This document shows, piece by piece, positions 5,550 through 23,358 of a stretch of DNA of 32,000 bases. The stretch covers positions 780,001 to 812,000 of the forward strand of contig OZ246396.1 of the NCBI GenBank assembly GCA_965230905.1. The letters are read 5' to 3'. The DNA comes from Candidatus Saccharimonadota bacterium. GTDB lineage: Bacteria; Patescibacteriota; Gracilibacteria; UBA1369; 2-02-FULL-48-14. The translations under genes and the position numbers were made by a program. Position 1 is the stretch's first letter. The number at the start of each line of letters is the position of its first letter. The notes under the pieces were generated by a model. It was not told where the DNA came from and made no database searches. It worked only from the letters and a program-made list of their open reading frames with translations.

Positions 5550-7580
5550 ATGTCTTCAATAGACGACTTAGCAGGTGGGCTCACTTATCCCACGGACGAA
5601 AATGGTTATATCTGCTTAAATGAATCGGGAGCCGTGCGGCTGCCGGATGACAGCTTACTTCGTTTTTGGGTAGATAGTGGGTATGTGGAAGTGGTGCTGA
5701 ACGAGGGTGTTTTTTGGAAGAAGGCCACGCCAGATCAATTCGAATGGGTTCTTGGAGAACTGTCACGCCGAATAGACACCCGTTTTGAATTGATTCACGA
5801 GGATGGAGAACGGATTAAACTGCTCCCGGTGGATTCCACCGATTCAACGGATTCATTGGATTCAATGAAGGACGATGATCCCCTGCCTTTGGACAGCCCT
5901 GTTGTGGTGAGGAGGGGTTTTCGGGATCGATTGAAAGCGGTGAGCGGATGGATTTTTAAGAAAAAAGAGCCTGAAGTGTATGTGAAAGGAGTTGGATTTA
6001 CCAAGGAGTCTGAGGTTGGGGAGGATGTTCGTGAGTACATTAAAACTAAGTTGGGCGTAGACGATGCGGAGTTGGATGCCATTGCGGATGAGTATTTCCA
6101 TCCGGGATTGACCATGGACCCCAAAGTTGCCAAAAGTGCCATCAATGCAGTTAAACAATCTGCAAAAGCAGAAAGCAATGTGCGCCGTTTTGCCGCCATT
6201 TGGGAGGATTTAACCGTGCGAATTCCTTTTACAAAATTTCGTCTGCCCATGCCTGCCGCGGATCCACTCATCAGTTTAATTCCTGGAGTTGGAGAGGTGG
6301 TGGATGGAGTGATTCCAACTGGAATTTTTGCCTACAACGGGCTCAAAGCGGGTTTGAACGCTGGGCCCATGGCTCGTGGGCTAGCCTTGCAATTCGGAAA
6401 CTTTGCCCTGCACATTTTGAAGTATGGAGGGCCGACGGTTGTAGTTAAGTTTGCGGTGGATTGGCTGTTCAATTCAGTCACCGCTACTACCCATGATTTC
6501 ATGGACCGCCGCTTGCAGGCAATTTCTGTGGCGCGTGGGTTTGGAATCACGGAAGAAGATATTGAAAAAGTGTCTCAAGAAGCCATCCGCAAGTCCACCG
6601 TTACCGAAGAAAATACACAAAATTCACGTATACTTAAGCGCTGGGTAGTGGGTGGAGTGATGTCTTTTGGAAGGCACAAAAATACAGCCATAGCCGTGGC
6701 CACAAAGCCTTTTGAAAAGAAAATAAGTGAGGGTACTGAAGCGGTTTTGGATTACTTTTATCCACTCTTGGAAGATCGGAAAGAAACGGAGCGGAGAGGT
6801 AGAAGTTTTGTAGAAAATGTGGGATCGGGATTCGCCCATCATGGGCACGATCACGGCCATGGGACACCGGCTCATGGGCCGGCTCATGGGCCGGCTCATG
6901 GGCCTGCTCAAATCCCTGCAGAGGATGATCATGGTCACGGACATGGTTTCGACCATCCAGTTCCAGTGGAAGCGGCGCCGGCTAGCCCTGAACTCGCCAC
7001 TTTAGCGGGCGCTTATCTTTTGTATGAAGATATTTTACATAGACTTTCCCCTGAAAGCGCACGACGTTTAGAGGCGGAATTAGTACGTGTGCGAGCAGGG
7101 AATTTGAAGGCCAATGAAGTGGATTATGCAAAAGCTTTGAAGCAAGTTTTTGAATTCGATAAATCTCAGGTTTTGAGGCTTTCGGATGATATTCGTGAAC
7201 GCTTTCAAAATCTTATGAGAACGAGTGGTTTTGTGCACAGCAATCCTTTTAGTGGAAGCCAGTCTTGGTCACTGTGGGATATTGCCAAACAATTCCACTA
7301 TTATAAAAATAAGAGAGCTGAGCCTAGCGACTATCACTTGGGCAATCCTTTGTCGGACCCACAGGTTCAGGACGAGATTGTTTACCGTCACTTTGGATGG
7401 GAACTGTATCAAAAATGGCAAAACCCGGCTGAACGGCCAATTCTTGAAGGTCTAATTGCTTTTCAGCCAAACCAAACACAGATTGAAGCTTTGCTAAATA
7501 AAGCGCACAAGCCAAATTATACCCTCAGCTCGAAAGACTTGGCTGAGTTGGGAGAACTGGTGGCTCGCTGTGTACGTTAG
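5550..7580 (+). CDS. large hypothetical protein with a DUF4112-like hydrophobic core and a His-rich repeat region
   Basis: 676-aa ATG ORF. The central segment DPLISLIPGVGEVVDG...GLKAGLNAGPMARGL resembles DUF4112 (DPLIGLIPGVGD). It also carries DSTDSTDSLDS and HHGHDHGHGTPAHGPAHGPAHGPA...DDHGHGHGFDHP low-complexity tracts. Confidence 0.75.
   Translation: MSSIDDLAGGLTYPTDENGYICLNESGAVRLPDDSLLRFWVDSGYVEVVLNEGVFWKKATPDQFEWVLGELSRRIDTRFELIHEDGERIKLLPVDSTDSTDSLDSMKDDDPLPLDSPVVVRRGFRDRLKAVSGWIFKKKEPEVYVKGVGFTKESEVGEDVREYIKTKLGVDDAELDAIADEYFHPGLTMDPKVAKSAINAVKQSAKAESNVRRFAAIWEDLTVRIPFTKFRLPMPAADPLISLIPGVGEVVDGVIPTGIFAYNGLKAGLNAGPMARGLALQFGNFALHILKYGGPTVVVKFAVDWLFNSVTATTHDFMDRRLQAISVARGFGITEEDIEKVSQEAIRKSTVTEENTQNSRILKRWVVGGVMSFGRHKNTAIAVATKPFEKKISEGTEAVLDYFYPLLEDRKETERRGRSFVENVGSGFAHHGHDHGHGTPAHGPAHGPAHGPAQIPAEDDHGHGHGFDHPVPVEAAPASPELATLAGAYLLYEDILHRLSPESARRLEAELVRVRAGNLKANEVDYAKALKQVFEFDKSQVLRLSDDIRERFQNLMRTSGFVHSNPFSGSQSWSLWDIAKQFHYYKNKRAEPSDYHLGNPLSDPQVQDEIVYRHFGWELYQKWQNPAERPILEGLIAFQPNQTQIEALLNKAHKPNYTLSSKDLAELGELVARCVR
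5832..5867 (+). repeat. 4 x 9-bp imperfect in-frame tandem repeat (gattcNNNg) encoding DSTDSTDSLDSM
   Basis: The sequence reads gattccacc gattcaacg gattcattg gattcaatg. Confidence 0.8.
6867..6910 (+). repeat. 3.7 x 12-bp in-frame tandem repeat (ccggctcatggg) encoding PAHG repeats
   Basis: Three perfect copies at 6867-6902 plus a partial diverged copy, inside the His-rich tract. Confidence 0.85.
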
Positions 7581-8245
7581 CAATCGCTGTTTCCGCAGCC
7601 ACAGGCGTCACCTTCCTTTTTAGTTTCGTTGCGACCACAACCACAACCGCCACCTCCGCTAGAGCAACCGCATCCGCCGGATTTTTTGGCCGTACTCGTA
7701 GAGAAATTGGGGTTGCTGATTTTGAAACCACTGCCGTAGGCGCTTTCTAAAAAGTCCACTTCGGCGCCGCCCAAGTTGGCCAGCGATTCCGGGTCCAGAT
7801 AAATCTCTACGCCGTGGAACTCAAAAGTCTTATCGTCCGCGGCGCCTTTTTCTGCAAAATCCATGGCGTAGGCGGGTTCGTTGCCACCGTTATCATTTGC
7901 GGTGATGCGAAGTCCGTAGCCTTCTTTATCTTCTGCTTTGGCGAATTCTTTTATTTTGATCGCGGCGTTTTCGGTCACATAAATGCCATCGTCCGGCGCT
8001 CGTTTGCGCGCGGCCGCGAGTTCGTTGATGCGTCCGATCATTTCATCTACCACGGCTTCTTCGATCCCGTGTGACATCGCACCCATTTTGAGCGGCTCGA
8101 ACACGTTTACGCTGCAGCTGGTGCAGTGCAGCCCAAAATCCTGCATGATTTGTGCAGAATCGGGCAGACGGTTCAGTACATCGCCGATCAACATGTCGCC
8201 GTTAATCAACGGTTGTTTCGCTGTTGAGTTCTGTGTTTGTGACAT
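7577..8245 (-). CDS. DUF1858 (redox-disulfide-type) domain fused to a HesB/IscA-like Fe-S carrier domain, with a Cys-Gly-rich tail
   Basis: The N-terminus GDMLIGDVLNRLPDSAQIMQDFGLHCTSCS is DUF1858-like. IYVTENAAIKIKEF...GLRI...GFKISNPN is HesB/IscA-like. The tail reads GGCGCSSGGGGCGCG...CGCGNSDC. The start was trimmed to ATG 8245 because homology begins there. Confidence 0.8.
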   Translation of the reverse strand: MSQTQNSTAKQPLINGDMLIGDVLNRLPDSAQIMQDFGLHCTSCSVNVFEPLKMGAMSHGIEEAVVDEMIGRINELAAARKRAPDDGIYVTENAAIKIKEFAKAEDKEGYGLRITANDNGGNEPAYAMDFAEKGAADDKTFEFHGVEIYLDPESLANLGGAEVDFLESAYGSGFKISNPNFSTSTAKKSGGCGCSSGGGGCGCGRNETKKEGDACGCGNSDC

Positions 8246-8351
8246 CGCTTGAATTAGAGGATCCCAATTGTAGCAGAAGAGGCGCAAGGGAGCCAGCCAG
8301 GAGTCCAATAATCATAATTACCGCGAAAATTTGAAAGATGCGTTTTTTCAT
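8202..8351 (-). CDS. possible small membrane protein (49 aa), not in the ORF track
   Basis: The ATG at 8351 lies 12 nt after the upstream stop. The product is MKKRIFQIFAVIMIIGLLAGSLAPLLLQLGSS..., with one clear TM helix. It overlaps the next gene's start by 44 nt in another frame. Confidence 0.25.
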   Translation of the reverse strand: MKKRIFQIFAVIMIIGLLAGSLAPLLLQLGSSNSSDVTNTELNSETTVD

Positions 8352-12139: not shown

Positions 12140-12805
12140 ATGTTTACGCCGGAAGCTTTCATCTTTGGTTTCACACAGGGATTCGTGATTGGTCCGCTGA
12201 GTTTGTACGCTATTCGTGAAGGTTTGAATCCTAAAAAGGGATTTTGGTATCAGCTTCAGGTTATTTTAGGGTCTTTTGTGGTGGACCTATTTTACTTGTC
12301 ATTGGCTACGTACGGGATTGCTCAATTCGTTGAAATCAGTTGGGTGAAAATGTTTATGTGGAGCGGAGCGGCTTATATGCTCATTCGTATGGGAATCAAC
12401 AGTTTGCGTGAAATGCCCGGACGCATGACCTTTCACCATGCGCATCGACATAAATTGGCTTTCTTCGACACGGACTTCTTTAAAGGCTTCATTGTCAGTC
12501 TGTTCAACCCGATGGCGGTGGTTTTCTGTGTGATGATTGTGGGAAGTTTGTATGCCAGTTATGAAGGGGACGCCAGTCCCGCAAGCTTCGCCATGAGTGT
12601 GAACATGGGAGGTTTTGCCGCTGGACTCATTGTGTGTGCGCTCACGTTTATGATTCGCCAAGTTTTCCATCCTTGGATGCTTAAAAAGGTCATGATGCTG
12701 GGCTCATTTGTGCTCATTGGCTACGGAGTCTACTTCTCTTATAAGGCTCTTTTGGAAGGAGGCCCCATGGTGCAGGCGGCGTTCACTTCCCTTTTGAATC
12801 TTTAG
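12140..12805 (+). CDS. LysE/RhtB-type amino-acid exporter family membrane protein
   Basis: 221 aa with about 6 TM helices. The N-terminal FGFTQGFVIGPLSLYAIREGL...LGSFVVDLFY pattern resembles LysE-family translocators. Confidence 0.65.
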   Translation: MFTPEAFIFGFTQGFVIGPLSLYAIREGLNPKKGFWYQLQVILGSFVVDLFYLSLATYGIAQFVEISWVKMFMWSGAAYMLIRMGINSLREMPGRMTFHHAHRHKLAFFDTDFFKGFIVSLFNPMAVVFCVMIVGSLYASYEGDASPASFAMSVNMGGFAAGLIVCALTFMIRQVFHPWMLKKVMMLGSFVLIGYGVYFSYKALLEGGPMVQAAFTSLLNL

Positions 12806-13637
12806 TAGAGGCAAAATAGTCCTGTATGTACTGCTGGTACGCGGCCATCAGTTGTTTGGTGAGTGTGCCAGGTTTCCCTTTGCCAACTTTTTTTCCGTTG
12901 AGGCGAGTAACGGGAATCACTTCGCGCGGACGGTTGGTGAGGAAAATCTCATCGGCCGACTTCAAGGTGGCAAGTTTGAAGTTTTTTTGAATCACGCGGA
13001 TGCCCAGTTTTTTGGCCAAAATCATAACGCGTTTTCGGGTGAGCCCGGGCAGCATGCCACTTTTTGGCGTGATGAGTTTACCATTCTTCACGATCATGAG
13101 ATTGGTGGAGGCGCCTTCAGGAATGTTTCCATTATTGCTCACCATCAGAGCTTCATAGATACCTTTTGGGAACAGGTCTTTGTAGGCCACGACCATGTGT
13201 GTGAGGCCCACGGTCTTAATTTGGGGGAGTACGCGGTGGAGTTTCATGGTCACTACCGAAACGCCTTCGCTGTAATCTTTGGGATTGAGCACCAGCGGTT
13301 CGCAGGTCACCACGGCCATGGGGTCTTTGGTACAGGTGAAATCGAAGGTGTTGCAGCCTCGGGAAACCGTGATGCGAACGCGGGCGGATTTGGCTTTGTT
13401 GCGGTCCGCGGTGCCTTGAATCCAGTTGCGCAGCTGCTTTTCGGTCCACGGCAGTTCGATGTTCATCACCTGCGCGGAATGGAAGAGACGTTTGAGGTGC
13501 AGTTCCAGTTCAAGCACTTGGCCATGGTAGGTGCGCATGGTGTCGTAAAAGCCGTCGCCGTACAAAAAAGCGTTGTCCAAAACCGAGATTTTGGCCTTTT
13601 TTTCGTCCATCCACTTTCCGTTGATGCAAATAATCAT
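12783..13637 (-). CDS. fold-type IV PLP aminotransferase (D-amino-acid/branched-chain aminotransferase or ADC lyase class)
   Basis: Class IV blocks: VLDNAFLYGDGFYDTMRTY, LHLKRL, IKTVGL (putative PLP Lys), EGASTNLMIVKNGKLITP, LPGLTRK. Substrate class cannot be decided by eye. Confidence 0.85.
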   Translation of the reverse strand: MIICINGKWMDEKKAKISVLDNAFLYGDGFYDTMRTYHGQVLELELHLKRLFHSAQVMNIELPWTEKQLRNWIQGTADRNKAKSARVRITVSRGCNTFDFTCTKDPMAVVTCEPLVLNPKDYSEGVSVVTMKLHRVLPQIKTVGLTHMVVAYKDLFPKGIYEALMVSNNGNIPEGASTNLMIVKNGKLITPKSGMLPGLTRKRVMILAKKLGIRVIQKNFKLATLKSADEIFLTNRPREVIPVTRLNGKKVGKGKPGTLTKQLMAAYQQYIQDYFASTKDSKGK

Positions 13638-15040
13638 GTGGTTTCGTTACAAAGCAGAGTATAGATAATTGGCCAGTTGCTTTCAAAGGCATTCGCCAGC
13701 GTGATCTTCCCCAGGGCTTCCTGAGCTTCCGCCAGGGTTTTGCCCGTGCCGTGGAGCAGGAGGTCCAGATTCAGGGCGGGGCGGTCTGTTTCCAAAAAGA
13801 GAGTGTTGAGTCCGTAGTTGTATAAAGTGCTGTTGGCTTGGCAGGGCTCGGCATCCGCGCCGGCGCGGTTGTAGACTTCCTTCATTGCGTGTAGGTAGTG
13901 CATTTGGTTGAAGCCACCCAGGCAGTTGAAGCCGTAATACAGGTGAACCACCGTGTAAATGAGCAGCAGGTTGGGCATCAGCGCTTTCTCGCGCAAAGCC
14001 TGTGCCACCGCCTCGGGGGTGAAGGGCAAGCTGAAGCGGCCGTCTTCGGTGCAGAGTTGGCCGTCTTTACGTTGAAGTTTAGTTCGAGTGTTTTTTTCTG
14101 GATTCACCCACCAGAACAGGTGAGTCGCCAAATTTCCTTGGCGCAGGAATTCCTCCATGGCCGCCGTGAGGGCATCCAAGAGCGTGGCGTGGTTTGGGTC
14201 AAAGATCAGTTTGTGGATGAGGCTAGCGCTCTGCAGGTGATTTTCCAGAAGCAGTTCCGTCACCAGGGTTTCCAATTCCACGTAAATCAGGCTTTTGGCC
14301 TGGGGCTCGTTTTTGAAGATTTTTTGCCAGAGTTCGGCGTTGATTTGGGTGAACTGGTCGCACAGAGAAGGCGCTGAAAGGATTTCTGGCTTTTTATAGA
14401 TTTCCGTGAGCACGGCAAAAAGTTGGTCGGCCTCGGCGGTGCTGACCTCACCATTCCGCAGTTTTTCACGCAGGGCTTTTTCAATTTTCACGATTTCTTC
14501 CAGGTTGTACGGCCTAAAACCATAGACCAGGCTGCTGTGGCTGTTGCTCGGTAAAATGGAGAGCTTTTGAAGTTCGTAGGAGTCATTTTTGGCTGAGTGG
14601 AACAGAAGGCCGCGGGGATAGTCTTCGTTGTTGAGGGAAACGCTGGAACAGCTTAGGACGACCACGTTTTTGAGGACTGGATCGTTGAGTTCAGCGGCTG
14701 CGGTGGCCAGCATCAGGTTGGCGCTGGTGGGCAGGCTGGAGTTGAGGGTTCCGTGGTGGTCGGCGCTGGAGGCGCCGTAGTAGGCGTTTAATTGGACTGC
14801 CACCTCGTCGGCTTTGGCGGTGCCTAGGCGGCTGGCCACAATTTTATTAAAGCTACGTAAAAACTCCTCCTGGCGCTCCGGAGAGGCGGCGGGCAGGTTT
14901 TTCAGGTTGGCGATGGCAAAGTCCTTTAAAGACAGGTTCCCGTATTTCTCTATCAACTCTTTAAGCAGAGGGCGTTTCTCAAAGATGAATGCCTTCTGTT
15001 CAGCTGAGGTCGTACCGGCTTGAGTTTGCAGAAAAAACAT
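13634..15040 (-). CDS. unknown-family protein, copy A (468 aa), paralog of 17964-19499
   Basis: ATG ORF whose stop overlaps the aminotransferase start by 4 nt. It shares blocks with copy B: YYxxSxADHxG, DPxxxNVxVLxC, (Y/F)PRGL(L/F)FH, P(N/S)LLL, CLGGFNQxxYL. No family recognised. Confidence 0.8.
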   Translation of the reverse strand: MFFLQTQAGTTSAEQKAFIFEKRPLLKELIEKYGNLSLKDFAIANLKNLPAASPERQEEFLRSFNKIVASRLGTAKADEVAVQLNAYYGASSADHHGTLNSSLPTSANLMLATAAAELNDPVLKNVVVLSCSSVSLNNEDYPRGLLFHSAKNDSYELQKLSILPSNSHSSLVYGFRPYNLEEIVKIEKALREKLRNGEVSTAEADQLFAVLTEIYKKPEILSAPSLCDQFTQINAELWQKIFKNEPQAKSLIYVELETLVTELLLENHLQSASLIHKLIFDPNHATLLDALTAAMEEFLRQGNLATHLFWWVNPEKNTRTKLQRKDGQLCTEDGRFSLPFTPEAVAQALREKALMPNLLLIYTVVHLYYGFNCLGGFNQMHYLHAMKEVYNRAGADAEPCQANSTLYNYGLNTLFLETDRPALNLDLLLHGTGKTLAEAQEALGKITLANAFESNWPIIYTLLCNETT

Positions 15041-15078
15041 AGATGCTCAGTCATTATAACAGGTTTGGCTGGGCCTTG

Positions 15079-15831
15079 CTATGCTTTGTCGAAGTGTTGC
15101 CAGTCGCTTTCGCCTTCCCAGTCGCCGCCCCATCCCCATCCGTTGGCTTTAAAAGTACTCACCACGCTATCTCCTTCCACCAGCACGCCCGGCTTACCAG
15201 CTTCATAAACGGCTCCTTCAGGAACAATCGTACCGTCTTTGCGATAGTGAGGGTTCAGCAGGGGATTGATGTCCACCGCGCGGCCCTTTGCGTGTAGTGA
15301 CATGATAGTGGTGCCTGCGATAGTGCGGTAATTGAAGCCGGAGCTGTTGTCGGCGAGCATGGAGGCGTCGTCGTCCCATCCAAACTGGGAAACCGGGATG
15401 GCGGATCGAATGGGGAATTTCGCTTTAAAAGCAGCTGCAAAGACCGCTTCCACCTCCTCTGCCAGCTCCTCGTCCACCACCATTTGGCCTTTATGGGTCA
15501 GGCCATCGAAGCCCATGTAATACACGTCCAAAAGCGTTTGTTTGGCGAGGAGATCTTCGGGGCAATCGTCTCGAAGGCCGTTTACCACGCCTTCTACATA
15601 GGAGAGTTCGGCGTCTACCACGGCGTCGGTGGGGGCTTCTTCTAGGCCATAGTGTGCCAGCTTAGCGGGCCGGGATTGCAGTTTTCCCTCGGCCTTCATC
15701 TGCAATAAACAGGTGATTTTACTACGAAGAGCCGCCACCTCTGCGGTGACGGGCTCTTGTAAAACATTTTCTAGGGTGCTGAGTTCGGCAGCTCGTTGGT
15801 ACTCGGTTCTGCCGGGGGCGTGCTCGATCAT
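15079..15831 (-). CDS. M15-family zinc D-Ala-D-Ala carboxypeptidase/dipeptidase-like peptidase (VanY/LdcB-like)
   Basis: SLHAKGRAVDINP (SxHxxGxAxD) and GWGWGGDW...DWQHFD motifs. No signal peptide. Confidence 0.8.
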   Translation of the reverse strand: MIEHAPGRTEYQRAAELSTLENVLQEPVTAEVAALRSKITCLLQMKAEGKLQSRPAKLAHYGLEEAPTDAVVDAELSYVEGVVNGLRDDCPEDLLAKQTLLDVYYMGFDGLTHKGQMVVDEELAEEVEAVFAAAFKAKFPIRSAIPVSQFGWDDDASMLADNSSGFNYRTIAGTTIMSLHAKGRAVDINPLLNPHYRKDGTIVPEGAVYEAGKPGVLVEGDSVVSTFKANGWGWGGDWEGESDWQHFDKA

Positions 15832-15860
15832 TTGACAAGTTAGTAATTATGTTCTATAGT
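15832..15860 (+). promoter_or_regulatory. predicted sigma70-type promoter for the tandem M14-like genes
   Basis: TTGACA (15832-15837), a 17-nt spacer, then TATAGT (15855-15860). The ATG is at 15892. Confidence 0.55.
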
Positions 15861-15872
15861 CCTAAGCTAGAC

Positions 15873-15901
15873 ACTATAACCCCTAGATTAAATGGAAGCA
15901 A
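15873..15901 (-). promoter_or_regulatory. predicted sigma70-type promoter for the M15/copy-A/aminotransferase operon
   Basis: Minus strand TTGCTT (15901-15896), a 17-nt spacer, then TATAGT (15878-15873). This mirrors the plus-strand promoter. Confidence 0.4.
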
Positions 15902-16899
15902 ATCAATTTGATTTCTCACAGGAGACACTCGATCGGGCTAATCGTTCATTGATGGAATCAGAGCACCGTGGAGTACCTGGAGTTCAGGAATTCCGTGGAG
16001 AGGTTGCCGGCCCTTCGGATCCTGTTTTATACATTGGTACTCACACTCATGGAGATGAACCAGGATCAGGGGCTATTGTTCCAGCACTTATAAGTGGGCA
16101 AGTTAAGGTAGGGCGGGGTCGAGTAATTGTTGGGGTGAATAATTTGGACGCAGCGCGTGAAGGAAAACGATTTCTAAAGGGTGGACTCAACTTCAACCGT
16201 CTTCCTGCTGACGATATGTTGGCAGGCGCACATGCGAATAATGCTTCATTAGATTTTCAACGTATGCGAGCCTTGGCACGAGCCGGTTTATTGGAGGCTA
16301 CTCATGGCCTGGATCTTCATACCATCCCACATTCACCGGTTCCTGGGTTTAAGCTCCACGAGAAGGGTGACTATAATTTTGCTAATGCTATTGGAATCGA
16401 AGACTTTATTGCAGAGATCACTAACAATCAGTTCGATTCAGAGAACCCTGCCGGACCTAAAACGGTTGCCTTCGGAAATTATATTGGTGGTTTAGAAAAC
16501 AATATTCCAGTTGCTGAAATCGAAGGAGGAGGACCTGAAACACCTGCAGTTCGTAGAACCGTTGCACAAGGAACTCTTTCTGTTATGGCTCAGTTGGGAA
16601 TGATAGATCCTAGCCGTTATGGCCTCGAGCCAAGAGAAATAGAACAACGTTTATATACGGTTACGGATTGGGCTTGGGCTCCAGCGGGTTACACCTTAGC
16701 TCGACAATTTGAACCCTACGCAAGAATGCAAAAAGGCGAACCTGTAATGGTTGATTCTACGGGAGCAGGACGACCTGACATCGTGGCTCCTAGAGATGGA
16801 CATCTTATTATGCCACCTCCTTTTGGTAAGCCTCTTGCTGGTCCAGATGACTGGTGGCATTCCGCTCCAGTTGAGGTGAGCCGACAGAAGGTACTGTAA
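15892..16899 (+). CDS. AstE/AspA-type (succinylglutamate desuccinylase/aspartoacylase, M14-like) zinc hydrolase, copy 1
   Basis: GTHTHGDE (HxxE zinc site), NFNRLP, LDLHT (third ligand) and AEIEGGGP (catalytic Glu region). No signal peptide. Confidence 0.7.
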   Translation: MEANQFDFSQETLDRANRSLMESEHRGVPGVQEFRGEVAGPSDPVLYIGTHTHGDEPGSGAIVPALISGQVKVGRGRVIVGVNNLDAAREGKRFLKGGLNFNRLPADDMLAGAHANNASLDFQRMRALARAGLLEATHGLDLHTIPHSPVPGFKLHEKGDYNFANAIGIEDFIAEITNNQFDSENPAGPKTVAFGNYIGGLENNIPVAEIEGGGPETPAVRRTVAQGTLSVMAQLGMIDPSRYGLEPREIEQRLYTVTDWAWAPAGYTLARQFEPYARMQKGEPVMVDSTGAGRPDIVAPRDGHLIMPPPFGKPLAGPDDWWHSAPVEVSRQKVL

Positions 16900-16932
16900 A
16901 TTGACAGACCCTGATGTTGCCTTCATATTGAT

Positions 16933-17967
16933 TTGGTGCTGTACAAAATCACGACTTACGCGGAAGATCTTTTAAGGCAAAGTGTTGAGGCTTTGATGTC
17001 TTCTGTGTACCGAGGAGTACATGGAATTTATGAAATCAAAGGAGAGATTCAAGGGCCTTCTCAACCAACTTTATACGTAGGAACTTACACGCATGGTGAC
17101 GAGTTGCTTTCAGGTTCACCCATTTTACCCCTCCTTAAAGGTGATATTCGGCTAAAAAGAGGGCGGATTTTGCTCGCGGTCAATAATCTTGAGGCGACTC
17201 AAATGGGGCTGCGTATGGTTCCGGGTGAGATAGATTTTAATCGGCTGCCTTTAGAAGATGTCATGACCAGTTCGGACTCTAATCCCTCTTTGAGTCTGCA
17301 GCGGCTGCAGTCTCTAGGGAAAATAGTGCTTGAGGCAAGTCATGGGTTTGAAATTCATACCACCCCCAGTAAGCCTTATTTGGCTATGAGGCTGCCCATT
17401 AAAGGCGACCAGGCTTTTTCAGAGGCGATAGATGCGGAGATTTCCATCCTCAATATTACTCAGTTTCAGAAAGACTGCCGGGACCCGGACGGTCCTTGCA
17501 CCTTGGCATTTGGGAATTATATTGGCGGTTTGGAAAATCCCATTCCCGTGGTGGAATTGGAAGGAGGGGGGCCTCAGACTGCGGAGAACAATCCGCTCCT
17601 CTATGAATCGATTCTTCGTGCCTTGCTCTCAGTTTTGGCGCGTTTGGATATGATTGATGCCGAGGAATATGGGCTAAGCCCAAAAACCATTATTCGGAAG
17701 GTGTATGAAGTGATAGATTGGCAATGGGCTTCTCCTGGTTACGTACTTCCTCGCTTGTTTGAACCGTTTGCTTATTTGAAAAAAGGCGACGTGGTAATGC
17801 AAGATGGTACAGACTCTGGTTTGCCACCGATTCTCATGCCTGAAGACGGACACCTGGTGCTCCACCCCTCCTATAAAATAAAGGATGGAAAGCCAATGCC
17901 CTCCACTCATCCAAAAGATTGGTTTGTTTCTAAACCTGTGCACTTAGAATCTGTGGAAGTCCTTTAG
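16933..17967 (+). CDS. AstE/AspA-type (M14-like) zinc hydrolase, copy 2 (tandem paralog)
   Basis: GTYTHGDE, DFNRLP, FEIHT and VELEGGGP, collinear with copy 1. Similarity extends upstream of the first ATG, so the start must be TTG 16933 or GTG 16936. Confidence 0.7.
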   Translation: MVLYKITTYAEDLLRQSVEALMSSVYRGVHGIYEIKGEIQGPSQPTLYVGTYTHGDELLSGSPILPLLKGDIRLKRGRILLAVNNLEATQMGLRMVPGEIDFNRLPLEDVMTSSDSNPSLSLQRLQSLGKIVLEASHGFEIHTTPSKPYLAMRLPIKGDQAFSEAIDAEISILNITQFQKDCRDPDGPCTLAFGNYIGGLENPIPVVELEGGGPQTAENNPLLYESILRALLSVLARLDMIDAEEYGLSPKTIIRKVYEVIDWQWASPGYVLPRLFEPFAYLKKGDVVMQDGTDSGLPPILMPEDGHLVLHPSYKIKDGKPMPSTHPKDWFVSKPVHLESVEVL

Positions 17968-19499
17968 TCCTTCGGAATCTCGATACAAGGTTCGGCTTTA
18001 TCGTGAAGGCCAATCATCTCGCTGAGTTCCTTTTCGGTGATGGATTCCAGCTCGGGTTCCCATTCTTTTTTGTCGTAGGAGATTTTGTACATTTCCGGCA
18101 TCAGGGGGGTCAGCGCTTCTTCAAAGGTGATTTGCTTAGCGGAATCCACCAGGCGTTGCCAGCTGTCTTCTTTCCCGTACAAAATAAGGTCGGGACCGCT
18201 GGCTAGGCCCACCTCGTGGTCTCCGTATTCCATGAACGCAAAAGTGAGTCCGTCGCAGATCTCCTTGGTTTGTGCCCGGGCACAAACTTCAATACTGCGG
18301 TAGTTTCCAATATCCACGTTCATTTTAATGTAGCCGTTCTTCATGTGGGTGAGGTAGTTCACTTGGTTGAATCCGCCGAGGCATTTCACGCCGTAGTAAA
18401 AAGAAACGGTGGCGAAAGCCAGCAAGAGGCTGGGGATGAGTTCTTTTTCTTCCATGGCCTTTTGAATGATTTCCGGTTTGAGCTCAATTTTGTAGGATTC
18501 ATCTTTGGACACCAAGAAATTCCCTTTCCGCCAGAGTTGCAGGTTGCGCTTGCTTCCTTTTGGCAGCGCCCAAAACAGGTAGGTTCCGGATTCATCGGCT
18601 CGTGAGAAGGAACCAAAAATGCCTTCAAAATACTGGTTGATGTAGGGCTCGTAGGTGAGGTCGAAAAGGATGTGGTTCAAAATAGTGTGTTCGTAGAGAT
18701 GGTGCTTGATTAGTAGGCGAACCACGATGTCCTCCAATTCCAGGTAAACCAAGTTGGGAAGCTTCACTTTGCTGGTGGCGAAAAGGCGTGGCCAGAGTTT
18801 GAAGTTGGTTTTGCTGATTTGCTCCATGTAGGAAGCGGAGTTGTAAACTTCGGGTTGGTCGTAGACTTCCTGCATGAGTTGGGTCATTTTTTCGTGTTCC
18901 ATGGCGCCGATCTCGCCTTTGTCGAGCTTGATTTTTAATTCTTTGAGGATTTTTTCCACTTCCACCTTGGTGTAAGGGGGTAGGGTGTAAACGGCGGGTG
19001 GACGGGTGTTGGCTGAGAAAAAAGACATGCGGTGGGTTTGCAATTTTCCTTCACGCACATTGTGGAAAAAGAGCCCGCGTGGGAAAGAGGAGTTGTCCAC
19101 GGAGATGTTTGCACAGGCCAGTACGATGACATTTTGAATGGCTGGATCGGAATGATCGGCCATGGCGGCTGCCGTGAGCAAGTTTGAGTTCAAAAAGAAC
19201 GGATGGGTGATGGGCCCGTCGTGATCGGCCGTGGAAACGAAATAGTATTTTTTGAGCTGATTCACCACGGAGTCGGCCAGTTTTTTATCAAAACGGCTTT
19301 CCACCACTTCGGCTACCACACCCAAAAATTCATTCTGTCGCCTAGGAATGGTAGGGGGGAGGTTCACATCCACGTAATCGTGGGAGTATTCGAGGAGTTT
19401 TTTGGATCCTCGTTTCTTTAGAATTTCGTCTAGGACAGGTCTTTTTACGAGTACTTTTTCTTTTAAGCGTGCAAATCGATCGGCTAGGTCACCTTGCAT
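17964..19499 (-). CDS. unknown-family protein, copy B (511 aa), paralog of 13634-15040
   Basis: Same conserved blocks as copy A (YYFVSTADHDG, FPRGLFFHN, CLGGFNQVNYL). The start was trimmed to ATG 19499 because the track start overlaps rlmN. Confidence 0.8.
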   Translation of the reverse strand: MQGDLADRFARLKEKVLVKRPVLDEILKKRGSKKLLEYSHDYVDVNLPPTIPRRQNEFLGVVAEVVESRFDKKLADSVVNQLKKYYFVSTADHDGPITHPFFLNSNLLTAAAMADHSDPAIQNVIVLACANISVDNSSFPRGLFFHNVREGKLQTHRMSFFSANTRPPAVYTLPPYTKVEVEKILKELKIKLDKGEIGAMEHEKMTQLMQEVYDQPEVYNSASYMEQISKTNFKLWPRLFATSKVKLPNLVYLELEDIVVRLLIKHHLYEHTILNHILFDLTYEPYINQYFEGIFGSFSRADESGTYLFWALPKGSKRNLQLWRKGNFLVSKDESYKIELKPEIIQKAMEEKELIPSLLLAFATVSFYYGVKCLGGFNQVNYLTHMKNGYIKMNVDIGNYRSIEVCARAQTKEICDGLTFAFMEYGDHEVGLASGPDLILYGKEDSWQRLVDSAKQITFEEALTPLMPEMYKISYDKKEWEPELESITEKELSEMIGLHDKAEPCIEIPKD

Positions 19500-19526
19500 A
19501 TGCTTTCTTGATTTAGGATGGCGATA

Positions 19527-19536
19527 ATTTATACCA
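19527..19536 (-). promoter_or_regulatory. possible extended -10 promoter element for copy B
   Basis: Minus strand TGGTATAAAT lies about 28 nt upstream of ATG 19499, in the 68-nt gap after rlmN. Confidence 0.3.
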
Positions 19537-19567
19537 TTTTTAGAAAAGAAGCAAAGGGTGGGCGTTT

Positions 19568-20644
19568 TTACTTCTTCCCACCCAAAACAATCAACTGGCC
19601 ACAAGCAGCGGCAATATCGTCGCCCATGGTTTTGCGCATGGTAACAGGGACGCCGCGGCGTTCGAGGATCTCTTTGAAACGGTCGAGTTGGGCGCGGGTG
19701 GAGCGCTCCATGCCGATGTCGGTGAAGTTGTAGGGGATCATGTTCACCTTGAGCGGTTCTTCGCCGTGGCGGCGGCCGGCGGTGAGTTCGCGGACGAGGT
19801 CGGCGAGGACTTCGGCGTGGCGGTCGGTGTCGTTGATGTTTTTGAGCATCACGTATTCAAAAGTCAGGTGGTGGCGGCGGTTGCCGTGGACCACTTGGTA
19901 GCGCTTGATCCAATCTTTGAGTTTGCCAATAAAGCCGTCGAAGGAGCTGGGCACGATTTCCTTGCGGGTGATGGGGTCGGCGCTGTGCAAAGAGATGGCG
20001 AGACGGGTGTCGGGCCAGTCGGGATCCACCAAGATTTTTTCCAAAACTGGCAGCACGCCCACGGTGGAAACGGTGATGTGCGTGGGGCCGAGGTCGGTGT
20101 ATTTGAGCCAGGTGTGGATGGTGGTTTTCACATTTTCGTAATTGGCCAGCGGTTCGCCCATTCCCATAAAAACCACGTTGCTGATGCGCTGCTCGCCCTG
20201 GAGTTCCGTGTGGATGAAGTTTTGCCAAAAGCGATATTGATCCGTTATTTCGTCTGCGGTCAGGCTGCGGAGTAGGCCCATTTTTCCGGTGGCGCAAAAG
20301 GTGCAGCCCATGGCGCATCCAACTTGGGAGGACACGCAAATGGTCCAGTCGCCGCGCATGTTTTCCATGAGCACGGTTTCCACTTTTTGTCCGTCTTCCA
20401 GCTCGAGGAGCGCTTTGTGGGTGTCCCCGCGAGCACTGCGCATGATCTGCTGGCCAATATAAGAAAGCCAACGCGCGTTTAGGGTCAGCGTTTCGCGCAT
20501 GGCCAGTGAAAGATTCGTGATGTCGTGCCAGCCGAGTTTTCCAGGTTTAAAGAGGTTCTCCTCAATCTGCTTCCAGCGGAAGGATTTTTCATTGGGAAAA
20601 AGTTTCTGGAAGAGCTCGAAACGGGTTTTTATTGGTGTCGCCAT
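19568..20644 (-). CDS. rlmN: 23S rRNA/tRNA adenine-C2 methyltransferase (radical SAM)
   Basis: Radical SAM GCAMGCTFCATG, plus GMGEPL and DDIAAACGQL blocks typical of RlmN. Confidence 0.93.
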   Translation of the reverse strand: MATPIKTRFELFQKLFPNEKSFRWKQIEENLFKPGKLGWHDITNLSLAMRETLTLNARWLSYIGQQIMRSARGDTHKALLELEDGQKVETVLMENMRGDWTICVSSQVGCAMGCTFCATGKMGLLRSLTADEITDQYRFWQNFIHTELQGEQRISNVVFMGMGEPLANYENVKTTIHTWLKYTDLGPTHITVSTVGVLPVLEKILVDPDWPDTRLAISLHSADPITRKEIVPSSFDGFIGKLKDWIKRYQVVHGNRRHHLTFEYVMLKNINDTDRHAEVLADLVRELTAGRRHGEEPLKVNMIPYNFTDIGMERSTRAQLDRFKEILERRGVPVTMRKTMGDDIAAACGQLIVLGGKK

Positions 20645-20754
20645 ATCTGAATTAGCGTGATTGTGACATAAATGTGCAAAACTGGCAAAAGTTTAGGAAA
20701 AGAATTCAGGTTTTTGTCAGGATTTTCTCAAAACGCCTGTGTTACTGTTCTTTT

Positions 20755-21165
20755 ATGCGTGTTTATCAAACTAAAGTAGAAAAACTTAAGGGGACAGATT
20801 TTGTTGAAGTTCGAAGGAAAGCCTTTTTTATTTTTAAACAAATCAAAAAGAAGACTAAGCGACAGCCTTATATTCGGTCTGCTTATTTCAGTAAAGAAAA
20901 AGTTTTCTTGAATATCTTTTGGGCTCATTTATTCGAAAAACCTTCAAGTGAGCGTCTGCGTCGACTGAAGTATTTTGCTGCTGCGATCGAGCTTATTGAA
21001 CACAATCGTTTTACTCCGACAACCAAAACCGATTCTAACAATCCAAGATTTTTACTTCATAGATTTAGCGGACTTACAAAAGAGAATGAAATGTTCTATG
21101 TTCAAATAAAGGAGGATATTTCTTCTCAGAAGAAATATTTGATTTCAATATTCCCCGATATATAA
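20755..21165 (+). CDS. hypothetical protein (136 aa) in an AT-rich segment
   Basis: The ATG at 20755 was preferred over the track start. Lys-rich product (MRVYQTKVEKLKG...FWAHLFEK...FYVQIKEDISSQKKYLISIFP). Sampled GC is about 32-37%. No family assigned. Confidence 0.55.
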   Translation: MRVYQTKVEKLKGTDFVEVRRKAFFIFKQIKKKTKRQPYIRSAYFSKEKVFLNIFWAHLFEKPSSERLRRLKYFAAAIELIEHNRFTPTTKTDSNNPRFLLHRFSGLTKENEMFYVQIKEDISSQKKYLISIFPDI

Positions 21166-21169
21166 AAAG

Positions 21170-21219
21170 AAAGGCTCCCCGCTGTTGTGGTATATAAACC
21201 ACGGTGCCGATCAGCCTTT
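21170..21219. terminator. nested hairpin between convergent genes (possible bidirectional terminator)
   Basis: Outer stem AAAGGCT (21170-21176) pairs with AGCCTTT (21213-21219). Inner stem GTGGT-atataa-ACCAC is at 21187-21202. The flanking A/T runs are imperfect. Confidence 0.35.
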
Positions 21220-21285
21220 CATATATATTTTAACAAAGACGCGTTTATTTACAAGGGCTGGTTCGTACGGCGAAATTTATGAGTC

Positions 21286-21675
21286 TTACTTCTGTAATTT
21301 CCAGGCCACCCACGTCAGCACGTACCAGGCCACGAAGCCTATGCCGAGCCAGTTTAAATCCTCATCCAGGCTCAGGGTTGGGAAGAGCACGTGGTAGCCG
21401 CCCTGTTTGGAGATCCAGTAGGCGTTCAGCATTCCGAGCAAGAGTCCCACCATGGTGGCCACGAATAAAAAGCGGTATTTTTTTAGGTCGCTTGAAACCA
21501 GGCTTAGCAAAAAGGCTTGGGTGAGGGCGTACAGCGCGATGTAGCGGTCGTGGGTGAATATAAAAATGCGGTCGTGTTCCAAAATCGGGAGGCCCAAGAA
21601 GTGTAGGAAAAATTCGCTTAAGAAAAATAGAGCGCCGAGCCATAAAAGAACGCGAGTGAGGAGGAGTTTGTTCAT
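21286..21675 (-). CDS. hypothetical integral membrane protein (129 aa, about 4 TM)
   Basis: ATG ORF overlapping the upstream gene by 4 nt, with hydrophobic helices. No family recognised. Confidence 0.65.
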   Translation of the reverse strand: MNKLLLTRVLLWLGALFFLSEFFLHFLGLPILEHDRIFIFTHDRYIALYALTQAFLLSLVSSDLKKYRFLFVATMVGLLLGMLNAYWISKQGGYHVLFPTLSLDEDLNWLGIGFVAWYVLTWVAWKLQK

Positions 21676-22049: not shown

Positions 22050-22066
22050 GTGCCCAGCATAGCACT

Positions 22067-23356: not shown

Positions 23357-23358
23357 TT

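What the first reader, a model, noticed from the sequence alone, without database searches (positions are those of the whole stretch)
13634..15040. Unrecognised protein family present twice (copy A here, copy B at 17964-19499)
The two proteins (468 and about 511 aa) are collinear over essentially their whole length. Identity looks low, roughly 30% by eye, but several blocks are sharply conserved:
- YY(G/F)xS(S/T)ADH(H/D)G
- DP(V/A)xxNVxVL(S/A)C
- (Y/F)PRGL(L/F)FH
- LFW(W/A)
- P(N/S)LLL
- YYG(F/V)xCLGGFNQ(M/V)xYL

I see no P-loop, Rossmann or metal-site signature, and no TM helix or signal peptide. The invariant His, Asp, Cys and Arg residues look like an active site. I cannot place the family.
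Basis: seen in the sequence. Interest (0 to 1): 0.7.

Follow-up and report, generated by a model that had tools for sequence, protein, structure and literature searches.

The report
Unnamed tRNA-synthetase-like enzyme family, two copies
The two genes are real, distantly related copies of an unnamed enzyme family found so far only in the tiny-celled Patescibacteria; the predicted fold resembles class I tRNA synthetases and the bacillithiol enzyme BshC, and their neighbours are amino-acid and peptide enzymes, so they most likely join amino acids by amide bonds.

Summary
Copy A (13634-15040, minus strand, 468 aa) and copy B (17964-19499, minus strand, 511 aa) align end to end: 31% identity, E = 1e-85. 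All six quoted motifs are present.

No Pfam, NCBIfam or PDB sequence match exists, and NCBI calls copy A "hypothetical protein". The family is not tiny, though. A profile search finds 1204 cluster representatives. All 77 genome loci recovered carry Patescibacteria labels or share gene order with loci that do.

The family can be placed by fold. AlphaFold models of both copies (pLDDT 92 and 89) each hit BshC (4wbd, Foldseek probability 1.0) and then class I lysyl-tRNA synthetase. His95, Arg143, Gln229, Glu257, Phe-Trp309/310 and GGxxQ375-379 are family-wide invariants. The two cysteines are not.

Context:
- In the window's lineage, A and B belong to a conserved gene set with an aminotransferase, two AstE-like amidohydrolases and an M15 peptidase.
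- Elsewhere the B type is adjacent or fused to a cyanophycin-synthetase-like ATP-grasp ligase, or to a two-cysteine racemase.

Best reading: ATP-dependent amide-bond-forming ligases acting on amino acids. The exact substrate is unknown. I rate this a new variant of a known kind, interest about 0.6.

The parts
13634..15040 (-). Copy A, 468 aa. This is the 'A-type' paralogue, a sub-clade seen only in Peribacteria/Peregrinibacteria-like genomes.
   Evidence: AF2 model pLDDT 91.7, pTM 0.92. Foldseek 4wbd E 1.3e-7, probability 1.0. In the locus table A-type members have a B-type member within the stretch read, except L003.
17964..19499 (-). Copy B, 511 aa from the ATG at 19499. This is the 'B-type', the general form of the family found across Patescibacteria. 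It carries a C-terminal tail that A lacks.
   Evidence: AF2 model pLDDT 88.8, pTM 0.91. Foldseek 4wbd E 1.6e-6, probability 1.0. It is 56-62% identical to B-type partners in L002, L086 and L087.
14750..14770 (-). Copy A motif SSADHHG (residues 91-97). It follows core strand beta1 directly. His95 is 100% conserved. This is the position where class I synthetases carry HIGH.
   Evidence: (strand 89-91, helix 102-118). The equivalence to HIGH is inferred from topology, not from a superposition.
14609..14617 (-). Copy A motif Pro142-Arg143-Gly144 (97-98% conserved), after core strand beta2.
13904..13918 (-). Copy A motif GGFNQ (residues 375-379). Gly375 and Gln379 are invariant. It is a glycine-rich turn at the N-terminus of helix 377-393, after strand 372-375, in a KMSKS-like position.
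   Evidence: It is the only stretch that hhalign aligns with BshC (AGPGEIxYW), and not significantly.
19215..19235 (-). Copy B motif STADHDG (residues 89-95, His93).
18363..18377 (-). Copy B motif GGFNQ (residues 375-379).
12783..13637 (-). Class IV (fold type IV) PLP aminotransferase. Its start overlaps the stop of copy A by 4 nt. It belongs to a subfamily with non-canonical pocket motifs.
   Evidence: Pfam Aminotran_4 E 3e-52. Best PDB hits are archaeal-type BCATs at 1e-47. It lies next to a family member in 17 of 81 loci, mostly as the +1 gene. A class I/II aminotransferase replaces it in L084 and L086.
15079..15831 (-). M15 (VanX/VanY-type) zinc peptidase with an SLHAKGRAVD motif and no signal peptide. 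It lies directly upstream of copy A on the same strand.
   Evidence: Pfam Peptidase_M15_4 E 4e-16. Sequence, hydropathy. Orthologues (58-61% identity) sit in the same module in L083 and L087; M15-type genes also occur in L038 and L042.
15892..16899 (+). [not shown]
   Evidence: Pfam AstE_AspA_cat E 5e-5, below the curated cut-off. PDB 1yw4 succinylglutamate desuccinylase E 0.05. In the locus table Z-type genes occur only in loci holding an A-type paralogue (7 of 7). The later look-ups L083, L084 and L087 agree.
16933..17967 (+). [not shown]
12140..12805 (+). LysE-type amino-acid exporter, convergent with the aminotransferase. Its membership of the module is tentative.
   Evidence: Pfam LysE E 3e-17. 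The same convergent arrangement next to the aminotransferase is seen in L083. A LysE gene also lies about 5 kb from the B-type member in L085. Support is only these few loci.

Best explanation
Copies A and B are two anciently diverged paralogues of a previously unnamed enzyme family, recovered so far only from Patescibacteria (CPR). They have the class I aminoacyl-tRNA-synthetase-type Rossmann (HUP) catalytic fold with inserted sub-domains. The nearest solved relatives are BshC and class I LysRS.

Proposed mechanism (inferred):
1. ATP and a carboxylate substrate, most likely an amino acid, bind at the C-terminal edge of the parallel sheet. There the invariant residues cluster: His95 in the HIGH position, Pro-Arg-Gly142-144, Glu257 and GGxxQ375-379 in the KMSKS position.
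2. The carboxylate is adenylated.
3. It is then passed to an amine acceptor, giving an amide (isopeptide or dipeptide-like) bond. This is the chemistry of the cysteine ligase MshC.

In the window's lineage the two ligase-like proteins work in a conserved soluble module with an aminotransferase, two AstE-like amidohydrolases and an M15 dipeptidase. This suggests a 'ligate (protect), transaminate, hydrolyse (deprotect)' pathway for an amino acid or small peptide. It is analogous in logic to LysX/LysJ/LysK or AstA/AstC/AstE.

In other Patescibacteria the B-type enzyme instead teams up with, or is fused to, a cyanophycin-synthetase-G-domain-like ATP-grasp ligase or a two-cysteine amino-acid racemase. 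It therefore seems to be a general amino-acid-ligating partner, possibly for D-amino acids.

Shown: paralogy, family-wide invariants, fold, gene linkage and fusions. Inferred: ATP use, amide-bond formation, substrate class and pathway logic.
For: Paralogy: 31% identity, E 1e-85.

Family size and invariants: 1204 representatives at E <= 1e-3 and 597 at <= 1e-30. Invariant polar residues are listed.

Fold: the AF2 models have pLDDT 91.7 and 88.8. Each gives 4wbd BshC (E 1.3e-7 and 1.6e-6, probability 1.0, 382-417 aligned columns) and 1irx class I LysRS (probability 0.99 and 0.91) as the only credible hits.

Active-site placement: the invariant residues fall right after the predicted core strands 89-91, 125-131, 250-255, 354-356, 372-375 and 414-417. 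That is the nucleotide-binding edge of HUP enzymes.

Fusions and adjacency:
- The family is fused to a CphA-like ATP-grasp in P0121, P0123, P0167, P0170, L068 and L075.
- The same ATP-grasp is a separate adjacent gene in 19 loci. It matches the cyanophycin synthetase G domain at E 1e-30.
- P0076 is a fusion to a second ATP-grasp type, which is free-standing and adjacent in L073, L014 and L071.
- P0026 is a fusion to a DapF/CntK-like racemase, which is free-standing as the +1 gene in L023, L024, L034 and L044.

Conserved module with the window's genes:
- L083 holds FB, Z, M15, FA, T, LysE.
- L084 holds FB, Z, FA and a class I/II aminotransferase on one strand.
- L086 holds FB, FA and a class I/II aminotransferase.
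- An aminotransferase is next to a family member in 17 of 81 loci.

All module proteins except LysE lack transmembrane-like segments.
Against: - No nucleotide or substrate binding has been shown, and I could not superpose the models on 4wbd, 1irx or MshC.
- The canonical HIGH and KMSKS motifs are absent. The family has HHG(P/T) and GGxxQ, and no invariant lysine.
- The nearest structural relative, BshC, has never shown ligase activity in vitro, and it bound ADP outside the canonical site (PMC4360819).
- Sequence-profile similarity to BshC is not significant: hhalign probability 0.4%, E 0.14-0.16.
- TM-scores are modest (0.39-0.46).
- The invariant His/Asp/Glu set would also fit a metal-dependent hydrolase.
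- Neighbourhoods differ between lineages. Loci with the CphA-like ATP-grasp and loci with T, Z or the racemase do not overlap, so one common pathway is not established.
- The aminotransferase has an atypical pocket, so its substrate cannot be named.
Confidence: 0.5

Rival explanations
1. They are aminoacyl-tRNA-dependent transferases. On this reading they are class-I-synthetase-derived enzymes that have lost ATP chemistry, as cyclodipeptide synthases have. They would take an activated amino acid from a charged tRNA and form a peptide or amide bond.
For: The fold is class-I-aaRS-like, but the HIGH and KMSKS motifs are degenerate and there is no invariant lysine. An IleRS-type class I synthetase gene lies within three genes of the family in 5 loci. 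BshC's ATP-dependent activity has never been reconstituted (PMC4360819).
Against: Five of 81 loci is a weak association for a housekeeping gene. Both copies are acidic overall (pI 5.6 and 5.9). Fusion to ATP-grasp ligases and racemases points to free amino acids as substrates. Cyclodipeptide synthases did not appear among the Foldseek hits.
Confidence: 0.15
2. They are metal-dependent hydrolases or amidases, or another non-ligase enzyme, built on a Rossmann-like scaffold. The invariant His95, His268, Glu257 and Asp426 would serve as metal ligands, and the proteins would act in peptide or N-acyl-amino-acid salvage together with the M15 and AstE-like hydrolases.
For: The invariant set is rich in His, Asp, Glu and Gln and has no lysine. 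The neighbours in the window are hydrolases plus an aminotransferase, which also fits a catabolic or salvage route.
Against: Only ligase- and synthetase-type folds are matched. Repeated fusion to ATP-grasp ligases is more typical of consecutive biosynthetic ligations. The glycine-rich GGxxQ turn at a helix N-terminus is a typical phosphate-binding feature (inference).
Confidence: 0.15
3. They are true BshC orthologues. On this reading they are cysteine-adding enzymes of a bacillithiol-type low-molecular-weight-thiol pathway.
For: BshC is the top structural hit for both models. The weak hhalign alignment is collinear: LFW...GGFNQxxYL..MK.AY against LFY...GPGEIxYW.ELK.AF.
Against: - PF10079 and PF24850 are not hit by A, B or any of 96 members, whereas every BshC listed carries both.
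- hhalign probability is 0.4%.
- The BshC invariants GGQQ.G..GPLYTIHK and AGEDHD are absent.
- No coiled-coil C-terminal domain is present.
- No glycosyltransferase or LmbE-type deacetylase (BshA/BshB-like) is among the recurrent neighbours.
Confidence: 0.05
4. They are non-catalytic proteins, for example scaffolds or regulators of the partner ATP-grasp or racemase, or they are spurious ORFs.
For: No biochemical data exist for any member.
Against: There are 1204 homologue clusters with strictly invariant polar residues clustered at one edge of the sheet. Both models are confident and compact. Both copies keep every invariant residue.
Confidence: 0.05

Closest known systems
BshC (YllA), the bacillithiol cysteine-adding enzyme; Pfam PF10079 plus PF24850; structure 4wbd
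   Same: It is the best and only highly significant structural match for both copies (Foldseek probability 1.0, 382-417 aligned columns). Both proteins have an N-terminal helical region of about 85 residues before the first core strand, a Rossmann core with inserted sub-domains, and a glycine-rich turn followed by x-x-Y-(L/W) and (M/L)K.A(Y/F) in the same relative place. For both, the biochemical reaction is unproven.
   Different: No sequence-level relationship is detectable (Pfam none; hhalign probability 0.4%). BshC's invariant GGQQ and AGEDHD motifs are replaced by (S/T)ADHHG and SxxN...PRG. The C-terminal coiled-coil dimerisation domain is missing. The taxa differ (Bacillota, Bacteroidota and others, versus Patescibacteria), and so do the gene partners.
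Class I aminoacyl-tRNA synthetases, especially class I LysRS (1irx), and the CysRS-derived amide ligase MshC
   Same: Second-best structural match (probability 0.91-0.99). A conserved His sits right after strand beta1 and a conserved loop follows the last core strand, at the positions of HIGH and KMSKS. MshC's chemistry (adenylate an amino acid, pass it to an amine) is the model for the proposed mechanism.
   Different: There are no canonical HIGH or KMSKS motifs, no recognisable anticodon-binding domain, and no Pfam tRNA-synt hit in 96 members. MshC and CysRS themselves were not among the Foldseek hits.
Cyanophycin synthetase CphA1/CphA2 and GshAB (for the partner protein, not for the family itself)
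   Same: The roughly 396-aa protein adjacent or fused to B-type members matches the ATP-grasp G domain of CphA1 (7txv/7lg5, E 1e-30), CphA2 (7ta5, 5e-26) and the glutathione-synthetase half of GshAB (3ln7, 3e-23). These enzymes extend the C-terminal carboxylate of a peptide by one amino acid.
   Different: The partner lacks the CphA N domain and the Mur-ligase-like M domain. In the fusions the class-I-aaRS-like protein takes the place of a second ligase module. No such ATP-grasp is present in this window.
Protect-transaminate-deprotect amino-acid pathways: LysX/LysJ/LysK (LysW-mediated lysine synthesis), AstA/AstC/AstE, DapD/DapC/DapE
   Same: The enzyme types of the module match: amide-forming step(s), an aminotransferase and an AstE-type or peptidase-type amidohydrolase, with a LysE-type exporter next door in some loci.
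   Different: This is an analogy of logic only. None of those enzymes is homologous to the family, there is no carrier protein such as LysW, and no kinase or reductase is seen in the module.

Membership tests
BshC family (Pfam PF10079 BshC + PF24850 C-terminal domain) | Match to the PF10079 profile | tested here: not met
   There is no hit for A or B at E <= 1, and none in 96 diverse members at E <= 10. All listed BshC proteins carry PF10079.
BshC family (Pfam PF10079 BshC + PF24850 C-terminal domain) | Profile-profile sequence similarity to a BshC alignment | tested here: not met
   hhalign of A2 or A5 against A3 (26 BshC sequences) gives probability 0.4% and E 0.14-0.16, with only an 84-column stretch aligned. 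Caveat: the BshC alignment covered only Bacillaceae (>= 45% identity).
BshC family (Pfam PF10079 BshC + PF24850 C-terminal domain) | Same three-dimensional fold as 4wbd | tested here: met
   Foldseek E 1.3e-7 (A) and 1.6e-6 (B), probability 1.0, TM 0.39-0.46.
BshC family (Pfam PF10079 BshC + PF24850 C-terminal domain) | C-terminal coiled-coil dimerisation domain (PF24850) | tested here: not met
   No PF24850 hit. Copy A ends about 90 residues after the GGFNQ motif, and its C-terminal part is made of short helices.
BshC family (Pfam PF10079 BshC + PF24850 C-terminal domain) | BshC invariant motifs GGQQ.G..GPLYTIHK and AGEDHD | tested here: not met
   The BshC invariants are listed. At the corresponding places the family has (S/T)ADHHG and VSLNN...PRG.
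Class I aminoacyl-tRNA synthetases | Rossmann-fold catalytic domain with connective-peptide insertions | tested here: met
   1irx class I LysRS is the second hit for both models, probability 0.91-0.99. The models show a parallel-strand core interrupted by a beta-hairpin plus helical insertion and a beta-rich insertion.
Class I aminoacyl-tRNA synthetases | HIGH signature after strand beta1 | tested here: inconclusive
   His95-His96-Gly97-(Pro/Thr) occupies that position. His95 is 100% conserved, His96 79% and Gly97 77%, and the final His is absent. The equivalence rests on topology only, without a superposition.
Class I aminoacyl-tRNA synthetases | KMSKS signature after the last core strand | tested here: not met
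   The loop reads GG(F)(N/S)Q, and the family has no invariant lysine.
Class I aminoacyl-tRNA synthetases | tRNA aminoacylation and an anticodon-binding domain | not testable with these tools
   No Pfam anticodon-domain hit. Function would need biochemistry.
Cyanophycin synthetase (CphA1) | N domain + ATP-grasp G domain + Mur-ligase-like M domain in one protein | tested here: not met
   Only the separate or fused partner protein matches, and only the G domain: CphA1 residues about 166-478. The family itself has no similarity to CphA, and the window has no such partner.

The most novel reading that the evidence does not exclude
The family is the core of a previously unrecognised, Patescibacteria-wide, non-ribosomal route for joining amino acids. 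A class-I-synthetase-like ligase would work in tandem with, and sometimes be fused to, a cyanophycin-synthetase-type ATP-grasp or an amino-acid racemase. Together they would build a so-far-unknown D-amino-acid-containing dipeptide, isopeptide polymer or small protective peptide or thiol. In Peribacteria a duplicated version (A + B, each with its own AstE-like hydrolase) would drive a carrier-free protect-transaminate-deprotect amino-acid pathway. Working it out would also give the first workable handle on the unsolved mechanism of BshC-type enzymes.
Probability: 0.25. Interest if true: 0.8.

Novelty: new variant of a known kind. Interest (0 to 1): 0.6.

Why it matters
Patescibacteria are a very large, almost uncultured branch of bacteria with tiny genomes, and a gene kept in such a genome is likely to matter. 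This family is conserved across at least eight of their lineages and is duplicated in this organism. It carries strictly invariant active-site-like residues, yet it has no name in any curated library.

Placing it in the class I synthetase/BshC fold makes it testable. So does showing that it is repeatedly fused to ATP-grasp ligases and a racemase, and embedded in a module with an aminotransferase and amidohydrolases. A few recombinant proteins and ATP/amino-acid assays could reveal a new amide-bond-forming chemistry, and perhaps a new cell-wall, storage or protective peptide of these organisms.

It may also shed light on BshC, whose reaction has resisted reconstitution since 2010.

Tried and rejected
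- **Curated family searches.** Pfam and NCBIfam scans of A and B gave nothing except a sub-threshold DUF5659 hit at A's N-terminus (E 7.6e-4, below cut-off), which I ignored. A Pfam scan of 96 members at E <= 10 gave only scattered noise.
- **PDB by sequence.** A single sequence and a profile both gave noise only: a Pumilio repeat at E 0.04 and a phage decoration protein at E 3.
- **Profile comparison with BshC.** hhalign of the family profile against a BshC sequence or alignment was not significant.
- **Radical SAM neighbour rejected.** The gene at 19568-20644 is an RlmN-type rRNA methyltransferase. It is not conserved next to the family, so I rejected it as a partner.
- **'D-amino-acid aminotransferase' reading weakened.** The best PDB hits of the downstream gene are archaeal BCATs (1e-47, against 1e-30 for DAAT). 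Its pocket motifs fit neither class. A class I/II aminotransferase replaces it in L084 and L086. I therefore claim only 'an aminotransferase'.
- **PabC-like reading dropped.** This idea for the same gene rested on sequences recalled from memory only.
- **Alternative genetic code 25 (Gracilibacteria label).** I considered this and found it unnecessary: all ORFs are long and intact under table 11.
- **'Gammaproteobacteria' labels.** Seventeen loci carry this label. They share gene order with Kerfeldbacteria and other CPR loci and have 38-46% GC, so I treat the labels as probable mislabels. This was not proven.
- **Literature.** Searches for 'BshC-like', cyanophycin synthetase in Patescibacteria and CPR protein families found nothing describing this family.
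Full report
**1. The observation**

The ORF list shows 13634-15040 (minus strand, 468 aa, ATG) and 17964-19604 (minus strand, 546 aa from a TTG). That ATG lies 68 nt past the stop of the upstream RlmN gene. An AAGAAAG stretch and a TTGCTT...TGGTATAAAT promoter-like element precede it. These are consensus-level matches only.

BLASTP of the two proteins gives 31% identity over 473 columns with only 14 gap positions, E = 1e-85. Neither protein has a transmembrane-like segment or a signal-like N-terminus.

**2. Is the family unrecognised?**

By sequence, yes.
- Pfam and NCBIfam give no family for either copy.
- A scan of 96 diverse members against Pfam at E <= 10 returns only scattered noise, with no BshC and no tRNA-synthetase family.
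- phmmer and a profile search against all PDB sequences find nothing credible.
- The identical protein exists in NCBI as 'hypothetical protein' from a Patescibacteria MAG with a 1.3-Mb contig. Its 89% relative comes from a 'Candidatus Gracilibacteria' MAG.

The family is not small, however. The first word-indexed search found only 25 relatives. A full HMM search of 1.84 billion cluster representatives found 1204 at E <= 1e-3 and 597 at E <= 1e-30.

A pattern-plus-tblastn scan of one genome per species returned 77 loci. They are labelled Peribacteria, Peregrinibacteria, Magasanikbacteria, Kerfeldbacteria, Roizmanbacteria, Doudnabacteria, Saccharibacteria, Paceibacterota or Gracilibacteria. Seventeen are labelled 'uncultured Gammaproteobacteria', but these share gene order with Kerfeldbacteria and other CPR loci. 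The scan used two motifs of the close family, so 'restricted to Patescibacteria' is what was seen, not a proof.

**3. Family-wide conservation**

- His95, Gln229, Gly375 and Gln379 are invariant.
- Glu257, Phe309 and Trp310 are 99% conserved; Arg143 is 98%.
- Pro142 and Asp426 are 97%; Pro356 and Gly376 are 96%.
- His268 and Arg319 are 95%.
- Asn138, Asn234, Trp238, Tyr368 and Tyr369 are 90-94%.
- Asp94 is 84%.

They are structural, not catalytic. Both window copies keep every invariant, so both look functional.

**4. Fold**

AlphaFold2 with a 24-sequence alignment gave a confident model of copy A (mean pLDDT 91.7, pTM 0.92). An independent run gave a confident model of copy B (88.8, 0.91).

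| Foldseek hit (PDB) | Copy A | Copy B |
|---|---|---|
| 4wbd, *B. subtilis* BshC | E 1.3e-7, probability 1.0, 417 columns, TM 0.46/0.41 | E 1.6e-6, probability 1.0 |
| 1irx, class I lysyl-tRNA synthetase | probability 0.99 | probability 0.91 |
| All other hits | E about 1 or worse | E about 1 or worse |

[quoted passage not shown] The proteins are therefore class-I-synthetase-like Rossmann (HUP) enzymes.

In the model the invariant residues sit immediately after the core strands:
- (S/T)ADHHG after strand 89-91 and before helix 102-118, the HIGH position.
- SxxN...PRG after strand 125-131.
- Glu257 after strand 250-255.
- Pro356 in strand 354-356.
- GGxxQ after strand 372-375, at the N-terminus of helix 377-393, a KMSKS-like position.
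- Asp426 after strand 414-417.

**5. Is it a BshC?**

No, by every sequence criterion I could test.
- I verified the BshC sequence against 4wbd_A and collected BshC homologues, all of which carry PF10079 and PF24850.
- I aligned 26 of them and compared profiles. hhalign probability is 0.4%, E 0.14-0.16.
- The one aligned stretch is collinear and suggestive: LFW...GGFNQxxYL..MK.AY against LFY...GPGEIxYW.ELK.AF. It is not significant.
- BshC's invariant GGQQ and AGEDHD motifs are absent, and so is the coiled-coil domain.

The relationship is therefore 'same fold, probably very distant homologue', not membership.

**6. Genomic context**

Only the genes from 12783 to 19604 recur next to family members elsewhere. 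The rest of the window does not.
- The radical-SAM gene upstream of B is RlmN, a housekeeping enzyme.
- On the minus strand, M15 peptidase (15079-15831), then copy A, then a class IV aminotransferase (12783-13637) form an apparent operon. The A stop and the aminotransferase start overlap by 4 nt.
- Divergently, two AstE/AspA-like amidohydrolase genes (15892-16899 and 16933-17967) follow a strong promoter-like site at 15832-15860. They are 45% identical paralogues.
- Copy B converges on the second of them.

*(i) Peribacteria/Peregrinibacteria-like lineages.* A B-type gene (about 505-555 aa) and an A-type gene (about 455-490 aa) lie side by side or close together, usually with an aminotransferase just downstream.
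- The class IV type occurs in 17 loci. A class I/II type replaces it in L084 and L086.
- An AstE-like gene often accompanies them. In the locus table it is present only where an A-type copy is present (7 of 7), and the later look-ups L083, L084 and L087 fit this.
- L087 holds exactly the window's six-gene set in another order: Z, FA, T, FB, M15, Z.
- L083 holds FB, Z, M15, FA, T, LysE.
- L084 holds FB, Z, FA and an aminotransferase on one strand.

Conservation of the set despite rearrangement argues for a functional module.

*(ii) Saccharibacteria, Roizmanbacteria, Doudnabacteria, some Magasanikbacteria and others.* A B-type gene is directly followed or preceded, often with overlapping stop and start, by a protein of about 396 aa. 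This holds in 19 loci.
- The two are fused in L068 and L075 and in P0121, P0123, P0167 and P0170.
- That partner matches the ATP-grasp G domain of cyanophycin synthetase (E 1e-30), CphA2 and GshAB.
- Further fusions exist with a second ATP-grasp type (P0076; free-standing next door in L073 and L014).
- There is also a fusion with a two-cysteine DapF/CntK-like racemase (P0026; free-standing as the +1 gene in L023, L024, L034 and L044, and nearby in L003).

Loci with the CphA-like ATP-grasp and loci with T, Z or the racemase do not overlap. The window itself has no ATP-grasp partner.

**7. How it most likely works**

Shown: two paralogues; invariant polar residues; class-I-synthetase/BshC-type fold; repeated linkage and fusion with amide-bond-forming ligases, a racemase, aminotransferases and amidohydrolases; all soluble.

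Inferred: the family binds ATP at the His95/GGxxQ crevice, adenylates the carboxylate of an amino acid, and transfers it to an amine to form an amide. This is the MshC type of reaction.

In the ATP-grasp lineages, two consecutive ligations would give a tripeptide-like or polymeric product. The G domains of CphA and GshAB extend a peptide's C-terminus. The racemase fusion suggests that a D-amino acid can be the substrate.

In the window's lineage the enzyme set is two ligase-like proteins, one aminotransferase, two N-acyl-amino-acid-type amidohydrolases, a dipeptidase and sometimes a LysE exporter. This is what one expects of a pathway that masks an amino or carboxyl group by an amide, transaminates, and then unmasks. 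The logic resembles LysX/LysJ/LysK, AstA/AstC/AstE or DapD/DapC/DapE.

I put about 0.5 on 'ATP-dependent amide ligase acting on amino acids', and much less on any specific substrate. The fold assignment itself I hold at about 0.85.

**8. Rivals**

- A tRNA-dependent transferase, like cyclodipeptide synthases. It fits the degenerate motifs and the occasional IleRS neighbour.
- A metal-dependent hydrolase using the His/Asp/Glu invariants. It fits the hydrolase-rich neighbourhood.
- A genuine BshC orthologue. This is rejected on sequence, domain and context grounds.
- A non-catalytic protein. This is unlikely given the invariants.

**9. Novelty and verdict**

The superfamily is known. The family, its A/B duplication with paired AstE-like hydrolases, and its Rosetta-stone links to CphA-type ATP-grasp ligases and a racemase are not described in any library or paper I could find.

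I rate it a new variant of a known kind, interest 0.6. The finding is real and moderately exciting. It is not 'unplaceable', but it is a well-defined, testable, uncharacterised enzyme family of the candidate phyla radiation.

Noticed in passing
window 15892-16899 (+) and 16933-17967 (+): A second duplicated pair lies between copies A and B. The two AstE/AspA-like zinc amidohydrolases are 45% identical (E 5e-107). In the locus table such genes occur only where an A-type paralogue is present, and L087 also has two.
   Followed up: yes
window 12783-13637 (-); 16 related loci (e.g. L002, L004, L029, L038): The class IV PLP enzyme downstream of copy A belongs to a subfamily whose pocket motifs are GDGxYDTMRTY, ARVRxTxxRG..GFDF and FLTNRPREIIPV. 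These match neither canonical branched-chain (FEGIR, YIR, GTAA) nor D-amino-acid aminotransferases, so its substrate is probably unusual.
   Followed up: partly
window 15079-15831 (-): The M15 peptidase has a perfect SxHxxGxAxD zinc motif but no signal peptide and a 170-residue N-terminal region of unknown function. It looks like a cytoplasmic VanX-like dipeptidase rather than a cell-wall carboxypeptidase.
   Followed up: partly
copy B residues about 470-511 (window 17967-18090); P0024, P0026, P0076: B-type members share a C-terminal tail motif, roughly LT.EE(I/V)..(I/L)TGL..K(I/L), that A-type members lack. In fusion proteins this tail forms the linker to the ATP-grasp or racemase domain, so it may be a docking segment.
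   Followed up: no
L061 9379-10575, L011 6749-7939 and 17 other loci (the ATP-grasp partner): The cyanophycin-synthetase-like ATP-grasp partner has its own N-terminal region of about 90 residues, with a CxxC motif and a long hydrophobic or amphipathic stretch. This region is unrelated to the CphA N domain and is kept in the fusions.
   Followed up: no
L003 13431-14165 and 6138-6878: Near an A-type member lie a Peptidase_S51 gene (the cyanophycinase / dipeptidase E family), a CntK-like racemase, an M20 peptidase and a carbamoyltransferase. This is another hint of small-peptide metabolism.
   Followed up: no
window 23111-23793 (+): A PIN-domain protein (149 aa) is preceded by, and overlaps, an 81-aa ORF. 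This is a VapBC-like toxin-antitoxin pair.
   Followed up: no
window 23796-25032 (-): An ECF sigma factor (171 aa) is followed by a DUF5667 protein (244 aa), with overlapping stop and start. This is probably a sigma/anti-sigma pair.
   Followed up: no
window 20674-22981 and 5550-7580: Four consecutive ORFs (163, 129, 143 and 304 aa) and one 676-aa ORF have no Pfam match at all.
   Followed up: no
whole window: GC skew is positive in every 2-kb window (cumulative skew rises steadily), although most long genes are on the minus strand. A single tRNA-Pro(GGG) at 26643-26719 (-) is the only RNA gene found.
   Followed up: no
window 7577-8308 (-); L087 916-1599: There is a fusion of DUF1858 with an Fe-S cluster biosynthesis (HesB/IscA-like) domain. 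It is conserved in a related contig together with the MFS transporter and the Methyltransf_4 gene, which shows local synteny with L087.
   Followed up: no
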